From: a bacterium
GTDB taxonomy: Bacteria; Bdellovibrionota; FAC87; UBA2466
Direction of reading: 5' to 3'
Length of the DNA: 57,561 nucleotides
Assembly (NCBI GenBank): GCA_009927045.1
Contig: RFNT01000218.1
Span: 1-57,561 of the forward strand
Shown here in pieces: positions 21,140 to 22,979 of this stretch. Below the pieces are notes generated by a model. It was not told where the DNA came from, searched no databases, and worked only from the letters and a program-made list of their open reading frames with translations. Position numbers and translations under genes: made by a program. Position 1 is the first letter of the stretch. Every line of letters begins with the position of its first letter.

Positions 21140-22174
21140 ATGAACATTCGACTGACGGAAACAGTAACAAAGGGGGGCTGTGCCGCAAAGCTCCCGGCAG
21201 GCCAGCTCCGAAAAATTTTGGGTCAACTCGCACTCAAAAATCCTCCTGAGTTAATTGTGGGAACAGAAACGTTAGATGATGCGTGCTTATGGGATTTAGG
21301 AAACGGGCAGCTCCTGATTCAAACTCTAGATTTTTTTACGCCCATTGTGGATGATCCGAAAGACTTCGGGCGGATTGCTGCAGCCAATGCGCTCAGCGAT
21401 GTCTTTGCCATGGGGGGAGCCCCCAAAACAGCGATGACTATCTTGGCGTTCCCCGCGCAACAGTTGGATTTAGGTCTTTTAGAACCGCTGATGACTGGAG
21501 CTGTGGAGAAAATCATAGAAGCAGGGGCCTGTTTGGCTGGCGGCCATTCGATTGACGACGACACGCTTAAACTGGGGTTTTCAGTTTCGGGTTTTGTGAA
21601 AAAAGAAAAAGCATGGAAGAACAGTGGCGCACAAGCTGGGGATGTCCTGATTCTGACTAAGGCGCTGGGCACAGGAACTATTACAAGCGCTATAAAAAAT
21701 AAAAAATCAAAAACGGATTGGGAAGAGGCGGCTATCCACAGCATGTGCCAGTTGAATCGTGTTCCGGAATTGGTGAGTGATTTTTCTATTCATGCAGCGA
21801 CAGATATTACCGGCTTCGGACTTTTGGGTCATGCTTTGCAACTTGCGCAAGCAAGTGGACGACAGATTGAATTTCAATCGGAGGCCTTGCCGGTGATCTT
21901 GGGCGCACGGGATTGTTTAGAAGGAAAAATTTTGAATCGTGCGCACCGAACGAATTGGGACTATGTGGAAAAGCATGTGCAGGTTGACTGCAAGGAGGAA
22001 TGGAAAAAGTGGCTGACAGTAGATCCACAAACTTCTGGGGGGCTTTTGTTGAGTGTTTCAGCTTCAGATGCGTCTGAGATCTTGAAACGTGTGCGAACCC
22101 AATTTTCAAAGGCGGCAATTGTAGGAGGGGTGAAAAACGAGACTCCTTCAGGGAAAAGAGTGGTGCTTATTTAG
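21140..22174 (+). CDS. selD: selenide, water dikinase (Cys-type active site)
   Basis: N-terminal TKGGCAAKL (a GxGCxxK-type loop with Cys, not Sec) and an AIR-synthase-like fold pattern. Confidence 0.93.
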   Translation: MNIRLTETVTKGGCAAKLPAGQLRKILGQLALKNPPELIVGTETLDDACLWDLGNGQLLIQTLDFFTPIVDDPKDFGRIAAANALSDVFAMGGAPKTAMTILAFPAQQLDLGLLEPLMTGAVEKIIEAGACLAGGHSIDDDTLKLGFSVSGFVKKEKAWKNSGAQAGDVLILTKALGTGTITSAIKNKKSKTDWEEAAIHSMCQLNRVPELVSDFSIHAATDITGFGLLGHALQLAQASGRQIEFQSEALPVILGARDCLEGKILNRAHRTNWDYVEKHVQVDCKEEWKKWLTVDPQTSGGLLLSVSASDASEILKRVRTQFSKAAIVGGVKNETPSGKRVVLI

Positions 22175-22979
22175 AAGTGGAGCTTCCCTCAGCATGAGTC
22201 CCTTTGCTGTCATCGCCTTCTTCGGGCTTAGGCTCATCCTTCTTGGTGTCTGGACCATACTTCTCCATAAATTCCTTTAGTTTGGTGGGATCTTTCACCG
22301 TTTCCATCAGTTTTGCTTTTGCATCATCTCGGGAAAGTTCTTCCTGCTTCTCCATTTTCTTCATCGCTTCCCATAGTTGATCAAAGTAGGCTTTTTGTTC
22401 TGCAGATAAGTCATCCGAAAGGCCATTTGCACGGCCAGCGTGGATGCCGACCGGTTGTAGGAGCGTTTGCCCGTTTACGTCGCGTGTGGCGTAGAAAACA
22501 CCGTTGCGTTCATAAATTCCAGCAGCCTCATTCACTGCTGTGAAGCTATTTTTCATGGAGTTGAGATCATAGTGCATCACCGGATTGTAAAAAACGCTTC
22601 CCGACCCTCCGTTCTTCAAGTGCTCCGAAAGGCTATCACTGAAGTGTTGAAATTTTTTGGTGAAACTGGAAGTGGGAGTTGCGGGGGTCGCTCCACCCGA
22701 TACCGTTCGATTACCGTTACCTGCAGGCGTGCCTCCGCGTAACATTGCTTGGAAATCAGCGTCGAATTTGGCGAGCCATTGTTCGGTGAAACCACCGCCT
22801 GTGCCGCCAGTGCTGCCCCCAGAATCAGGCAGAGAAGTGCTCGAAGAGGTAGGTTGAGATTGATATTGATACTCGGGCACTGACGAACTGTCAGTGCAAA
22901 CAACGCCGGGGCCTCAGCCCCCGAAGGCGGTGTTTCCCACTGCGAACAGTGGGATTAAAATGTAAAAAAGTGATTTCAT
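22167..22979 (-). CDS. candidate secreted selenoprotein (in-frame TGA at 22914..22916 read as Sec); otherwise a hypothetical 237-aa protein from GTG 22880
   Basis: ATG 22979 gives MKSLFYILIPLFAVGNTAFGG-TGA-GPGVVCTDSSSVPEYQYQ..., in the same frame as ORF 22167..22880. A hairpin follows downstream of the TGA. The 3' end overlaps selD by 8 nt. Confidence 0.6.
22877..22897 (-). promoter_or_regulatory. SECIS-like hairpin GCACUGAC-AGUUC-GUCAGUGC
   Basis: Perfect 8-bp stem and 5-nt loop containing GU, starting 16 nt 3' of the in-frame UGA. The ORF-track GTG start lies inside the stem. Confidence 0.5.

What the first reader, a model, noticed from the sequence alone, without database searches (positions are those of the whole stretch)
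22167..22979. In-frame TGA joins a signal peptide to a 237-aa ORF next to selD: candidate novel secreted selenoprotein
On the minus strand, ATG 22979 (with AAGAGAG just upstream) encodes MKSLFYILIPLFAVGNTAFGG, a textbook Sec-pathway signal peptide. It runs into TGA (22916-22914) and continues in the same frame (GPGVVCTDSSSV) into the ORF that the track begins at an internal GTG (22880). That ORF has no signal peptide of its own, although essentially every neighbouring island gene has one, and a 21-aa free signal peptide makes no sense as a product. Sixteen nt after the TGA lies a perfect 8-bp hairpin (GCACUGAC AGUUC GUCAGUGC) with GU in the loop. This is the shape and rough position of a bacterial SECIS, though somewhat further from the UGA than in E. 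coli fdhF. selD overlaps the gene's 3' end by 8 nt, and selA, selB and tRNA-Sec lie within 5 kb. If the TGA is read as Sec, the mature protein would begin about G-U-G-P-G-V-V-C (U-x5-C). The rest of the protein (Gly/Ser/Thr-rich, then a globular part, then a Lys/Glu tail) matches no family I recognise.
Basis: partly seen in the sequence, partly recalled or inferred. Interest (0 to 1): 0.85.

Follow-up and report, generated by a model that had tools for sequence, protein, structure and literature searches.

The report
New exported selenoprotein beside sel genes
The in-frame TGA almost certainly encodes selenocysteine, which makes this gene the first recognised member of a small, undescribed family of exported bacterial selenoproteins that always carry selenium and sit inside the selenocysteine-machinery locus.

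Summary
On the minus strand, ATG 22979 opens a 21-codon signal peptide. It runs into TGA 22916-22914 and stays in frame to the stop at 22167 (270 codons).

All 10 relatives with upstream DNA (nine distinct sequences plus L004, a 99% copy of the window; 22-99% identity to the window protein) show the same layout: signal peptide, in-frame TGA, a nearby Cys, a Pro/Ser/Thr/Gly-rich linker, and a conserved ~110-aa C-terminal domain. No relative has Cys in place of Sec.

Each TGA is followed, 19-31 nt downstream, by a 7-9 bp hairpin. The stem sequences are unrelated, but all share a C:G closing pair and an N-G-U-U-N-like loop. They fit the published bacterial SECIS model.

Differences in the signal-peptide codons are almost all synonymous. 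TGA is an ordinary stop elsewhere in the window.

selD, selA, selB and tRNA-Sec flank the gene in every contig long enough to show it. A second secreted Cys-pair protein ("Y", 17263-17835) and a secreted cytochrome c are also conserved neighbours.

Pfam, NCBIfam, PDB sequence search and Foldseek find no credible relative, only a weak LidA sequence match that I reject. The host looks like an uncultured Bdellovibrionales-like bacterium.

Function is unknown. My best guess is a tethered N-terminal selenol/thiol redox (or metal-binding) head.

The parts
22167..22979 (-). Full selenoprotein gene 'X': 270 codons including one UGA (Sec22); stop TAA 22169-22167
   Evidence: The frame is open from ATG 22979 to 22167 apart from the one TGA. 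The same architecture is seen in 10 related loci.
22917..22979 (-). Sec-type signal peptide, 21 codons (MKSLFYILIPLFAVGNTAFGG): Lys2, a hydrophobic core, and small residues at the end
   Evidence: The best 10-residue hydropathy window scores 2.53. Differences from L002 and L003 are 7:1 and 9:1 synonymous to non-synonymous, nearly all at third codon positions, so the region is translated and under purifying selection.
22914..22916 (-). In-frame UGA, read as selenocysteine (residue 22)
   Evidence: An in-frame TGA sits at the equivalent place in all 10 relatives with upstream DNA. TGA is an ordinary stop elsewhere in the window.
22896..22898 (-). Cys28, the partner cysteine (U-x5-C)
   Evidence: Every family member has one Cys next to or within 9 residues of the Sec: CU, U-x4-C, U-x5-C, U-x6-C, U-x9-C or C-x5-U.
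22877..22897 (-). SECIS-like hairpin GCACUGAC-AGUUC-GUCAGUGC: 8 bp, 5-nt loop, and 24 nt between the UGA and the loop
   Evidence: It meets all four criteria of the published bacterial SECIS model. Six of seven stem pairs covary across the family. It is the best hit of covariance model R1 (27.2 bits).
22245..22643 (-). Conserved C-terminal domain (residues ~113-245): a beta-sheet followed by three helices. Motifs: NPVMHYD, GIYERxGVFY, LQPVG, GLSxDLSxEQK.
   Evidence: alignments; profile search finds only 10 clusters; AlphaFold2 pLDDT about 80 for residues 133-245; no Foldseek match in the PDB.
22194..22196 (-). His262 in the C-terminal tail. A His lies 0-9 residues from the C-terminus in every member with a complete C-terminus, including L007 once its in-frame TAA is read through.
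   Evidence: read from the sequences. Its role is unknown.
21140..22174 (+). selD (selenophosphate synthetase), Cys type (GGCAAK). It is convergent with X and overlaps it by 8 nt.
   Evidence: TIGR00476, E 4e-106.
19708..21108 (-). selA (selenocysteine synthase). The true start is probably the ATG 13 codons downstream (about 21069).
   Evidence: PF03841, E 1e-105. Relatives are 443-452 aa.
17918..19720 (-). selB (Sec-specific elongation factor with a C-terminal winged-helix SECIS-binding domain)
   Evidence: PF00009, PF09107.
17836..17930 (+). tRNA-Sec (anticodon UCA)
   Evidence: RF01852, 64.5 bits.
17263..17835 (+). Gene 'Y': a ~190-aa protein with a hydrophobic N-terminus and a conserved C-terminal Cys pair. 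Its stop codon abuts tRNA-Sec on the same strand. It is a candidate partner of X.
   Evidence: It is homologous (hhalign 96.3%, E 1.9e-9) to the gene translationally coupled downstream of X in L008 and L009. It is also present next to tRNA-Sec in L003 and L005.
29334..30614 (-). Secreted protein with N-terminal Cys pairs, a long disordered region and a C-terminal mono-haem cytochrome c domain (CVGCH). It is a conserved neighbour of X. Here it is separated from X by an inserted block of three genes: the Fic gene, a 179-aa gene and a 1069-aa gene.
   Evidence: Cytochrome_CBB3-domain genes lie upstream of X in the window, L003, L005, L007, L011 and L012.

Best explanation
Gene X (22979-22167, minus strand) is a genuine selenoprotein gene.

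How the UGA is read:
- The ribosome translates a Sec-pathway signal peptide and reaches UGA at codon 22.
- SelB carrying Sec-tRNA(Sec) is recruited by the stem-loop 24 nt downstream, a bacterial SECIS that lies inside the coding sequence.
- Selenocysteine is inserted, and translation continues to give a 270-residue precursor. This precursor is exported and its signal peptide is removed.

The mature protein:
- It carries Sec within the first few residues, together with one nearby Cys.
- This head sits on a long, disordered Pro/Ser/Thr/Gly-rich tether.
- The tether leads to a small alpha/beta domain of unknown fold and a charged tail with a conserved His.

The locus: selD, selA, selB and selC surround the gene and probably exist in this lineage largely to serve it.

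What is shown:
- gene structure;
- conservation of the UGA;
- SECIS-like hairpins with covariation;
- a translated signal peptide;
- adjacent Sec machinery;
- absence of Cys homologues.

What is inferred (about 0.3 confidence): the Sec/Cys pair forms a redox-active selenenylsulfide on a flexible arm. It would work outside the cytoplasm with the co-conserved secreted Cys-pair protein Y and the neighbouring secreted cytochrome c, as a thiol/selenol electron relay.
For: 1. Conserved in-frame TGA. The window and all 10 related loci with upstream DNA (L001, L002, L003, L004, L005, L006, L007, L008, L009, L011, L012) have signal peptide, in-frame TGA, then an open frame into the conserved domain. 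Linkers of about 40-120 codons contain no other stop.

2. The signal peptide is translated. Synonymous to non-synonymous differences are 7:1, 9:1 and 6:0, at third codon positions.

3. SECIS.
   - Every locus has a stem-loop of 7-9 bp, -8.0 to -15.1 kcal/mol, with 19-31 nt between the UGA and the loop. G is in the first two loop positions in 10 of 11.
   - These values satisfy the model in PMC13188914: loop 3-9 nt, stem 4-16 bp, G in the first two loop positions, spacing 16-37 nt, MFE <= -7.5 kcal/mol.
   - In the loop-centred alignment 93.5% of cells pair, against 34-47% when partners are slid. Six of seven pairs show double changes, and the C:G closing pair is invariant.
   - Background frequency is 2.5% of window UGA triplets.

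4. Machinery. selD, selA and selB are adjacent in 7 of 7 long contigs, and tRNA-Sec wherever the contig reaches that far.

5. Standard genetic code. TGA ends 10 of 33 long ORFs, including selB and PDH E2.

6. Strain L001 replaces the whole Sec module with an unrelated sequence (GCUG instead of GGUGPGVVC; about 47% nt identity there, against 90-100% in the flanks). It still keeps the TGA and a hairpin at the same 24-nt spacing.

7. Partner genes. Y is homologous between the window-type loci and L008/L009, where it is translationally coupled to X. A cytochrome c gene is a recurrent neighbour.
Against: - There is no direct evidence of selenium incorporation, and no transcript or N-terminus mapping.
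- No Rfam SECIS family matches.
- No Cys-containing homologue exists to anchor the Sec column. That is the usual bioinformatic criterion (PMC12013277, PMC13188914).
- The hairpin alignment was anchored on hairpins I searched for, so its pairing percentage is partly selected. The background test and the unselected loop and closing-pair conservation address this only in part.
- L002 has A rather than G at the key loop position unless its closing G-C pair opens. L003 has one A-C mismatch. L001 has a bulged stem.
- The functional model (redox relay with Y and the cytochrome) rests only on motifs and gene neighbourhood.
- The globular domain has no conserved Cys or His and no recognisable fold.
Confidence: 0.85

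Rival explanations
1. The TGA is a real stop. The 21-codon ORF is a leader or upstream peptide, possibly regulatory. The protein starts independently at GTG 22880 or another internal start and is cytoplasmic.
For: Gene callers in every database start the relatives at internal codons. GTG 22880 exists in the window. A small G+C hairpin around the UGA is scored terminator-like.
Against: - The internal starts chosen by gene callers fall at different, non-homologous positions.
- L003 has no start at the position equivalent to GTG 22880 (GCG there), yet its frame stays open for 87 codons between the TGA and the called ATG 10001.
- The TGA is in frame in 11 of 11 loci despite linkers of very different length.
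- A free 19-42-aa signal peptide has no known role.
- The terminator-like hairpin is not conserved, and the conserved hairpin has no U-tract.
Confidence: 0.04
2. The TGA is read through, but not as selenocysteine. Either the organism uses a variant genetic code (TGA = Trp or Gly), or near-cognate suppression inserts Trp or Cys.
For: Variant codes with TGA as a sense codon exist in some uncultured bacteria (general knowledge). The organism is uncultured and absent from GTDB representatives.
Against: - TGA terminates 10 of 33 long ORFs in the window at the expected ends of conserved genes such as selB and PDH E2.
- No other long frame in the window needs TGA readthrough.
- A complete selA/selB/selC/selD set is adjacent, and a SECIS-type hairpin follows each TGA.
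Confidence: 0.02
3. Functional rival A. It is a true selenoprotein, but the N-terminal Sec/Cys pair, perhaps with the conserved C-terminal His, binds a metal or metalloid or selenium itself. The protein would be an extracytoplasmic chaperone, scavenger or selenium carrier rather than a redox catalyst.
For: - CU motifs in extracytoplasmic bacterial selenoproteins have been interpreted as metal ligands (bioRxiv 10.1101/2022.07.06.499078).
- About 70% of predicted Sec-ligand interactions in prokaryotic selenoproteins involve metals (PMC13188914).
- The spacing between Sec and Cys is variable and flexible.
- The C-terminal His is conserved.
- The gene sits next to selD, which would suit a role in selenium supply.
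Against: There is no transporter, efflux pump or metal-resistance gene in the conserved neighbourhood. Only two or three potential ligands exist, all in disordered tails. The neighbours are Cys-pair and haem proteins, which fit electron transfer at least as well.
Confidence: 0.25
4. Functional rival B. The Sec occupies the +1 position of a lipoprotein signal peptide (FGG-U), or sits next to it (AG-C-U). The protein would then be membrane-anchored through, or right beside, a selenocysteine.
For: In the window, L002 and L003 the residues before U (A-F-G-G) fit a PROSITE-type lipobox with U in the Cys position. L007 (W-G-A-G-C-U) fits with its Cys. (Read from the sequences; the pattern is recalled from general knowledge.)
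Against: L001, L005, L006, L008, L009, L011 and L012 do not fit a lipobox. They have charged or non-permitted residues at -1 to -4, or Sec far from the signal peptide. Ala-X-Ala/Gly signal peptidase I sites are available in most. No predictor (LipoP or SignalP) could be run.
Confidence: 0.07

Closest known systems
Canonical bacterial selenoprotein genes with an intragenic SECIS (E. coli fdhF type; bSECIS consensus of Zhang and Gladyshev as summarised in PMC13188914)
   Same: An in-frame UGA is followed by a coding-region stem-loop with G(U) in a small apical loop at 16-37 nt. The element depends on SelA, SelB, SelC and SelD, all of which are encoded next door.
   Different: The protein family is unrelated to any known selenoprotein. 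The SECIS has its own lineage-specific apex (a C:G pair closing N-G-U-U-N) and matches no Rfam model.
fdhA beside selA-selB-selC in organisms with a single selenoprotein (PMC1794560)
   Same: The Sec-decoding genes are clustered with a client selenoprotein gene. This suggests the trait is maintained, and possibly transferred, together with that client.
   Different: The client here is not formate dehydrogenase and SelD is the Cys type. If the genome has no Sec-FdhA, this would be an exception to the FdhA-or-SelD pattern described in that paper. That could not be tested because only 57 kb is available.
C-terminal Gly-Cys-Sec-Gly redox tail of animal thioredoxin reductase (general knowledge)
   Same: A Sec with a vicinal or nearby Cys sits on a flexible terminal extension. 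L001 and L007 literally read G-C-U-G.
   Different: The motif is N-terminal, on an exported protein, with no flavoprotein domain. The spacing varies (CU up to U-x9-C). This is analogy, not homology.
CU-motif selenoproteins found as truncated database entries (SaoB, SaoX, SaoL, N-terminal extension of HgcA; bioRxiv 10.1101/2022.07.06.499078)
   Same: They are systematically mis-annotated as truncated proteins because of the UGA. Sec is paired with Cys. Some are extracytoplasmic with signal peptides.
   Different: There is no sequence or fold relationship, no ABC-transporter or organometallic gene context, and NCBIfam models for those families do not match.
GrdA, GrdB, SelW-like: selenoprotein families with few or no Cys homologues (PMC1794560)
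   Same: Sec appears obligatory. No Cys form was found among all detectable homologues.
   Different: The protein is unrelated, and the family is far rarer (about 13 clusters in 1.8 billion representatives).

Membership tests
Bacterial selenoprotein gene (UGA recoded via bSECIS and SelB) | In-frame UGA conserved at the homologous position across homologues, with coding sequence conserved on both sides | tested here: met
   11 of 11 loci. Signal-peptide codons are under purifying selection. The downstream domain is conserved.
Bacterial selenoprotein gene (UGA recoded via bSECIS and SelB) | Stem-loop fitting the bSECIS model: 3-9 nt loop, 4-16 bp stem, G in the first two loop positions, 16-37 nt from the UGA, MFE <= -7.5 kcal/mol (PMC13188914) | tested here: met
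   All 11 loci meet the loop, stem, spacing and energy criteria. 10 of 11 have the loop G; L002 has it only if the closing G-C pair is open. Covariation is shown and the background rate (2.5%).
Bacterial selenoprotein gene (UGA recoded via bSECIS and SelB) | selA, selB, selC and selD present in the genome | tested here: met
   all four lie within 5 kb. The same is true in L003, L004 and L005.
Bacterial selenoprotein gene (UGA recoded via bSECIS and SelB) | Cys-containing homologues that align Cys with the UGA (the usual criterion, but not obligatory) | tested here: not met
   An exhaustive HMM search of 1.84 billion representatives found 10 clusters. All are N-terminally truncated calls. Every one with upstream DNA has TGA.
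Bacterial selenoprotein gene (UGA recoded via bSECIS and SelB) | Selenium shown in the polypeptide (75Se labelling or mass spectrometry) | not testable with these tools
   Requires experiment.
Rfam SECIS families | Match to a curated SECIS covariance model | tested here: not met
   no Rfam hit at E <= 10 on 22700-23100; the only gathering-level hit in the window is tRNA-Sec.
Bacterial lipoproteins (lipobox plus Cys at +1) | Lipobox [LVI..][AST..][GAS]-C at the end of the signal peptide in family members | tested here: not met
   Read by eye. It fits only the window, L002 and L003 (with U in place of C) and L007. Seven other loci violate it. No LipoP run was possible.
LidA-like (Legionella Rab-binding effector) | Co-linear sequence similarity and a shared fold | tested here: not met
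   The profile hit has E 3e-4 over a Lys/Glu-rich helical stretch. A second short segment matches in the reverse order. Foldseek against the PDB does not return LidA.
Known protein families (Pfam, NCBIfam, including curated selenoprotein models) | Significant profile match | tested here: not met
   no family for X, and only scattered single-member hits at E 0.05-0.3.

The most novel reading that the evidence does not exclude
An uncultured Bdellovibrionales-like clade may keep the whole selenocysteine-decoding apparatus mainly or only for one exported protein.

- That protein is obligately Sec-containing and has a new fold. Its Sec sits at the very N-terminus of the mature chain on a disordered, hypervariable tether.
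- Together with the co-inherited secreted Cys-pair protein Y and a secreted Cys-pair/haem c protein, it would form a previously unknown extracytoplasmic selenol-based redox or capture system.
- This system might be linked to the predatory or host-associated lifestyle of the clade.
- It would also be an exception to the pattern that the bacterial Sec trait is maintained by FdhA or Sec-SelD.
Probability: 0.25. Interest if true: 0.8.

Novelty: new variant of a known kind. Interest (0 to 1): 0.68.

Why it matters
- **It escapes the usual detection methods.** Nearly all bacterial selenoprotein families were found through Cys/Sec homologue pairs. Families with no Cys form are invisible to those methods (PMC12013277) and are rare (GrdA and a few others).
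- **Several unusual features together.** This family has no Cys form and no known domain. It is exported through the Sec pathway, and its selenocysteine lies at or near the mature N-terminus.
- **Embedded in the sel locus.** The gene sits between selD and the rest of the machinery in a lineage with no cultured or GTDB-representative genome.
- **Testable questions:**
  - What does a tethered extracytoplasmic selenol do?
  - Why is Sec never replaced by Cys in this family?
  - Can a Sec trait be maintained by a client other than FdhA or SelD?
- **A lineage-specific SECIS consensus.** The C:G-closed N-G-U-U-N loop, 19-31 nt from the UGA, could be used to mine related genomes.
- **Annotation.** All database entries for the family are truncated and should be corrected.

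Tried and rejected
- **Rfam** on the region at E <= 10 gave no SECIS hit. These models do not cover most bacterial SECIS elements, so this is uninformative.
- **GTDB genome scans.** Two scans, with the family alignment and with SelA, found nothing. The organism could only be placed roughly, through MurC hits named Bdellovibrionales, Deltaproteobacteria or Proteobacteria MAGs at 63-73% identity.
- **Metagenome scan** returned only a 99% copy of the same locus (L004).
- **Third protein search** with the 13-sequence profile added no members.
- **AlphaFold2.**
  - With 4 sequences the model was poor (pLDDT 49.5).
  - With 13 sequences it was usable only for residues 133-245.
  - Foldseek against the PDB gave nothing below E 0.7.
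- **LidA similarity** is rejected as charged-helix bias. The matched segments are not co-linear and there is no fold support.
- **Lipobox reading** is rejected as a family feature.
- **Terminator-like hairpin** around the UGA is not conserved and is a by-product of Gly/Pro codons.
- **Other recoded genes in the window.** A TGA-blind frame scan and translations of two candidates found none. Covariance model R1 found no further SECIS of this type in 130 kb.
- **Are the neighbouring cytochrome c genes also selenoproteins?** No in-frame TGA lies between their signal peptides and bodies.
- **Literature searches** for accession numbers, for Bdellovibrio selenoproteins and for exported bacterial selenoproteins found nothing on this family.
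Full report
**1. Observation**

On the minus strand, ATG 22979 is preceded by a purine-rich AAAAGAGAG. 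It opens MKSLFYILIPLFAVGNTAFGG, which runs into TGA at 22916-22914. The same frame continues GPGVVCTDSSSV into the 237-codon ORF that a mechanical ORF list starts at GTG 22880 and ends at 22167.

Sixteen nucleotides after the TGA lies a perfect 8-bp hairpin with a 5-nt loop, GCACUGAC-AGUUC-GUCAGUGC (22897-22877). It is the minimum-free-energy fold (-13.1 kcal/mol alone).

The neighbours are confirmed by ARAGORN, Rfam, Pfam and NCBIfam:
- selD (21140-22174, +), which overlaps the 3' end of the gene by 8 nt;
- selA (19708-21108, -);
- selB (17918-19720, -);
- tRNA-Sec (17836-17930, +).

**2. Relatives**

The family is very small.
- A word-indexed search of 5.8 billion clusters found four proteins.
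- An exhaustive HMMER profile search of 1.84 billion representatives found ten clusters at E <= 1e-3.
- All are database calls that begin at internal codons and lack a signal peptide.

I fetched the DNA behind eleven of them plus one metagenome copy and read upstream in frame. One contig (L010) is cut off at its 5' end. In every other locus a classical signal peptide is followed by an in-frame TGA and then an uninterrupted frame into the called protein:

| Locus | Sequence around Sec (U) |
|---|---|
| window / L004 | ...AFGG-U-GPGVVC |
| L002 | ...AFGG-U-GPGIVC |
| L003 | ...AFGG-U-APGVAC |
| L001 | ...AHAGC-U-GEP |
| L005 | ...SYAG-U-GVGSSGQFGC |
| L006 | ...LWAG-U-GPKGC |
| L007 | ...WGAGC-U-GDP |
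| L008 | ...ADDNC-U-PTPP |
| L009 | ...VCTTGRP-U-NST |
| L011 | ...AYGT-U-GVGQTC |
| L012 | ...LRSA-U-APGNRYC |

- The signal peptides of the distant members are unrelated in sequence.
- The linkers between the TGA and the conserved domain range from about 40 to 120 codons, and the TGA is in frame in all of them.
- There is always exactly one Cys beside or within nine residues of the TGA.
- No homologue has Cys, or anything else, at the TGA position.

**3. Is the upstream part translated, and is TGA otherwise a stop?**

Among the window, L002 and L003, differences in the 21 signal-peptide codons are 7:1, 9:1 and 6:0 synonymous to non-synonymous. Nearly all are at third positions, which is the signature of a translated region under purifying selection.

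TGA ends 10 of 33 long ORFs in the window, including selB and the PDH E2 gene. The organism therefore uses the standard code.

A TGA-blind scan of all six frames found no other gene in the 57 kb that needs readthrough.

**4. The RNA element**

Each TGA is followed by a stem-loop:
- 7-9 base pairs (L001 has one bulge, L003 one A-C mismatch);
- a loop of 3-5 nt;
- 19-31 nt between the UGA and the loop;
- -8.0 to -15.1 kcal/mol.

These values satisfy the four constraints of the published bacterial SECIS consensus as summarised in PMC13188914: loop 3-9 nt, stem 4-16 bp, G in the first two loop positions, spacing 16-37 nt, and MFE <= -7.5 kcal/mol. The loop-G rule is met by 10 of 11. L002 meets it only if its closing G-C pair is open.

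The stems have unrelated sequences (GCACUGAC, AGCGGCCA, GUCCUCCC, ACUCCCA, CCGGCAC, UCCUGCCG, GCUCUCCCG). When the hairpins are centred on the loop:
- 93.5% of cells pair, against 34-47% when the 3' partners are slid;
- six of seven pairs show changes on both sides;
- the pair closing the pentaloop is C:G in 11 of 11;
- the loop core is GUU in six loci, and begins with G in ten.

Caveat: I anchored this alignment on hairpins I had searched for, so the pairing percentage is partly selected. The unselected features are the closing pair, the loop sequence and the distance. The background rate gives independent support. Only 2.5% of the 2042 UGA triplets in the window have a >=7-bp hairpin with G early in the loop at this distance, against 8 of 9 independently diverged lineages here.

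A covariance model built from the alignment finds only these hairpins in 130 kb of window plus loci. No Rfam SECIS model matches.

**5. A natural swap experiment**

Contig L001 compares with the window as follows:

| Region | Nucleotide identity to window |
|---|---|
| upstream, and to about codon 15 (first 120 nt of the contig) | 100% |
| Sec module and linker | about 47% |
| conserved domain | about 90% |
| C-terminal tail | about 57% |
| selD | 90-97% |

Its Sec module is a different sequence (AGC-U-GEPVK, that is G-C-U-G). It still keeps the TGA and has a different hairpin whose loop starts at the same 24-nt distance.

The termini of the protein are therefore hypervariable or recombining, while Sec and its insertion signal are retained.

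**6. Genomic context**

In all seven contigs long enough to show it (window, L003, L004, L005, L007, L011, L012), selD lies convergently at the 3' end of X and is followed by selA-selB. tRNA-Sec follows selB wherever the contig reaches that far. SelD is the Cys type (GGCAAK).

Two further neighbours recur.

*Gene Y (window 17263-17835):*
- It is about 190 aa, with a hydrophobic N-terminus and a conserved C-terminal Cys pair.
- Its stop codon abuts tRNA-Sec on the same strand.
- It is homologous (hhalign probability 96.3%, E 1.9e-9, 119 columns) to the gene that overlaps the stop codon of X in the two most distant members, L008 and L009. There it also carries a CxxC right after its signal peptide.

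*A secreted cytochrome c protein:*
- It has N-terminal Cys pairs, a long disordered region and a C-terminal mono-haem cytochrome c domain.
- It lies upstream of X in the window (29334-30614), L003, L005, L007, L011 and L012.
- In the window and L003 a three-gene block (the Fic gene, a 179-aa gene and a 1069-aa gene) is inserted between it and X.

**7. The protein**

After the Sec/Cys head and the low-complexity linker come:
- a short conserved helix (WLAKFDADFQAMLRG in close relatives);
- a second linker;
- a conserved domain, residues ~113-245, with motifs NPVMHYD, GIYERxGVFY, LQPVG and GLSxDLSxEQK;
- a charged tail, which holds a His 0-9 residues from the C-terminus in every member with a complete C-terminus.

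With a 13-sequence alignment, AlphaFold2 gives pLDDT of about 80 for residues 133-245: a beta-sheet followed by three helices.

Similarity searches find nothing convincing:
- Foldseek against the PDB gives nothing better than E 0.7.
- Pfam and NCBIfam give no match.
- A PDB sequence-profile hit to Legionella LidA (E 3e-4) covers a Lys/Glu-rich helical stretch. A second short segment matches in reversed order. I regard it as compositional.

**8. Organism**

Neither the family nor SelA has a close relative among 185,579 GTDB species representatives. The closest named relatives of the window's MurC are MAGs labelled Bdellovibrionales, Deltaproteobacteria or Proteobacteria bacterium, at 63-73% identity. 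The rest of the window holds housekeeping genes (PDH complex, murC) and many large proteins with no domain hits.

**9. Interpretation**

*Shown:* X is a gene in which a conserved UGA joins a translated signal peptide to a conserved body. A covarying stem-loop that fits the bacterial SECIS model follows the UGA. The gene sits inside a complete selenocysteine-machinery locus, in a standard-code organism.

*Best explanation (confidence about 0.85):* SelB-mediated Sec insertion produces an exported selenoprotein whose Sec lies within the first few residues of the mature chain. Ala-X-Ala/Gly cleavage sites 1-4 residues before U are available in most members. L009 is the exception, with U about 20 residues further in.

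*Inferred (about 0.3):*
- The obligatory Sec plus one nearby Cys at variable spacing, on a disordered arm, forms a selenenylsulfide redox head.
- This resembles the flexible GCUG tail of thioredoxin reductase (analogy only).
- It would exchange electrons with the co-conserved secreted Cys-pair protein Y and the Cys-pair/haem c protein.

*Rivals for the function:*
- A metal-, metalloid- or selenium-binding head, with the C-terminal His as a third ligand (about 0.25).
- A lipobox-type anchor with Sec at +1 (about 0.07). It fits only four of eleven sequences.

*Rivals for the basic reading, together below 0.1:* a true stop with a leader peptide, non-Sec readthrough, or a pseudogene. The counter-evidence is given in the Rival explanations section.

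**10. Comparison with what is known**

The recoding mechanism is the canonical bacterial one. The protein family is not in Pfam or NCBIfam, including Haft's curated selenoprotein models. It is not among:
- the families in bioRxiv 10.1101/2022.07.06.499078;
- the deep-Sep predictions (PMC12013277);
- the passages I searched in the 2026 review PMC13188914.

Those methods rely on Cys homologues, which this family lacks. The authors of deep-Sep state that such families may be missed.

Clustering of the sel genes with a client selenoprotein is known for fdhA (PMC1794560). Here the client is different and SelD is not itself a selenoprotein.

I classify it as a new variant of a known kind: a new, obligately Sec-containing, exported selenoprotein family with a standard-type but lineage-specific SECIS.

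**11. Limits**

- There is no experimental evidence for selenium incorporation.
- No signal-peptide or lipoprotein predictor was available.
- Only 57 kb of the genome was seen, so other selenoproteins such as FdhA cannot be excluded.
- The function is inferred from motifs and neighbourhood only.

Noticed in passing
window 17263-17835 (+); L003 14912-15484; L005 7271-7549; L008 1209-1754; L009 1341-1937: Gene Y is a ~190-aa protein with a hydrophobic N-terminus and a conserved C-terminal Cys pair. Its stop codon abuts tRNA-Sec on the same strand, so the two may be co-transcribed. It is homologous to the gene translationally coupled to X in the most distant family members (hhalign 96.3%). It has no Pfam or NCBIfam match.
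   Followed up: partly
window 29334-30614 (-); L003 2096-3292; L005 1217-1843; L007 7401-9320; L011 2-982; L012 7878-8852: Secreted proteins with N-terminal Cys pairs (CRSC/CRTC, FNPCGWNxC), long disordered regions and a C-terminal mono-haem cytochrome c domain recur upstream of X. They are not selenoproteins themselves: no in-frame TGA was found.
   Followed up: partly
window 23137-29318; L003 3334-9517; L012 1-3146: A three-gene block lies between the cytochrome gene and X in the window and L003 but not in L005, L007 or L012. It comprises a Fic-domain protein (767 aa, with weak XopAC/AnkX-like hits), a 179-aa protein and a 1069-aa PGDYG-domain protein. L012 instead has a giant 4275-aa protein with PGDYG, adenosine-deaminase and Fic domains nearby. 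These look like toxin or effector genes.
   Followed up: no
L001 1-1198 versus window 22979 region: The identity profile is mosaic. It is 100% upstream, about 47% in the Sec module and linker, about 90% in the domain, about 57% in the C-terminal tail and 90-97% in selD. The two termini of X are hypervariable or recombine between otherwise close strains.
   Followed up: partly
L007 10553-10735 (GCA_046086625.1, JBJSXY010000073.1): X is interrupted by an in-frame TAA, after which the frame continues with a plausible C-terminal tail (..GRHAGQV). This may be a pseudogene, strain polymorphism or assembly error in this MAG.
   Followed up: no
L007 9607-9885; L011 1297-1545: A small (82-92 aa) secreted protein with the conserved motif EGHPxGESLVFPxGYR lies immediately upstream of X in two loci (51% identity to each other). 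It is absent from the window.
   Followed up: no
window 22908-22924 (-): A second hairpin, GGGGC-UGAG-GCCCC, places the UGA in its loop and is flagged terminator-like by the consensus scan. It is not conserved in L001 or L003, and is probably a by-product of Gly/Pro codons.
   Followed up: yes
window 10352-13282 (-): A 976-aa ORF gives a weak NCBIfam hit (E 6e-4, far below the cutoff) to NF041198, 'UshA-like (seleno)protein PCGU'. It has no Pfam hit, and no in-frame TGA candidate was found there.
   Followed up: partly
window 19708-21108 (-): The mechanical selA ORF starts at TTG 21108, only 31 nt from the selD start. Relatives are 443-452 aa, so the true start is probably the ATG about 13 codons downstream (MSNKTPQ...).
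   Followed up: no
window 49122-51326 (-): Two ORFs (322 and 411 aa) lie in the same frame, separated by a single TGA at 50360 with no hairpin after it. They are most likely two adjacent genes rather than a recoding site.
   Followed up: partly
window 22985-23015 (-); L001-L003 equivalents: The 5' leader TGGTATAC(A/G)GATTGCTCCGAAAAGA(G/A)(A/G)GTATG is almost invariant among the window, L001, L002 and L003. The coding sequence diverges, which suggests a conserved promoter or leader or translational control element.
   Followed up: no
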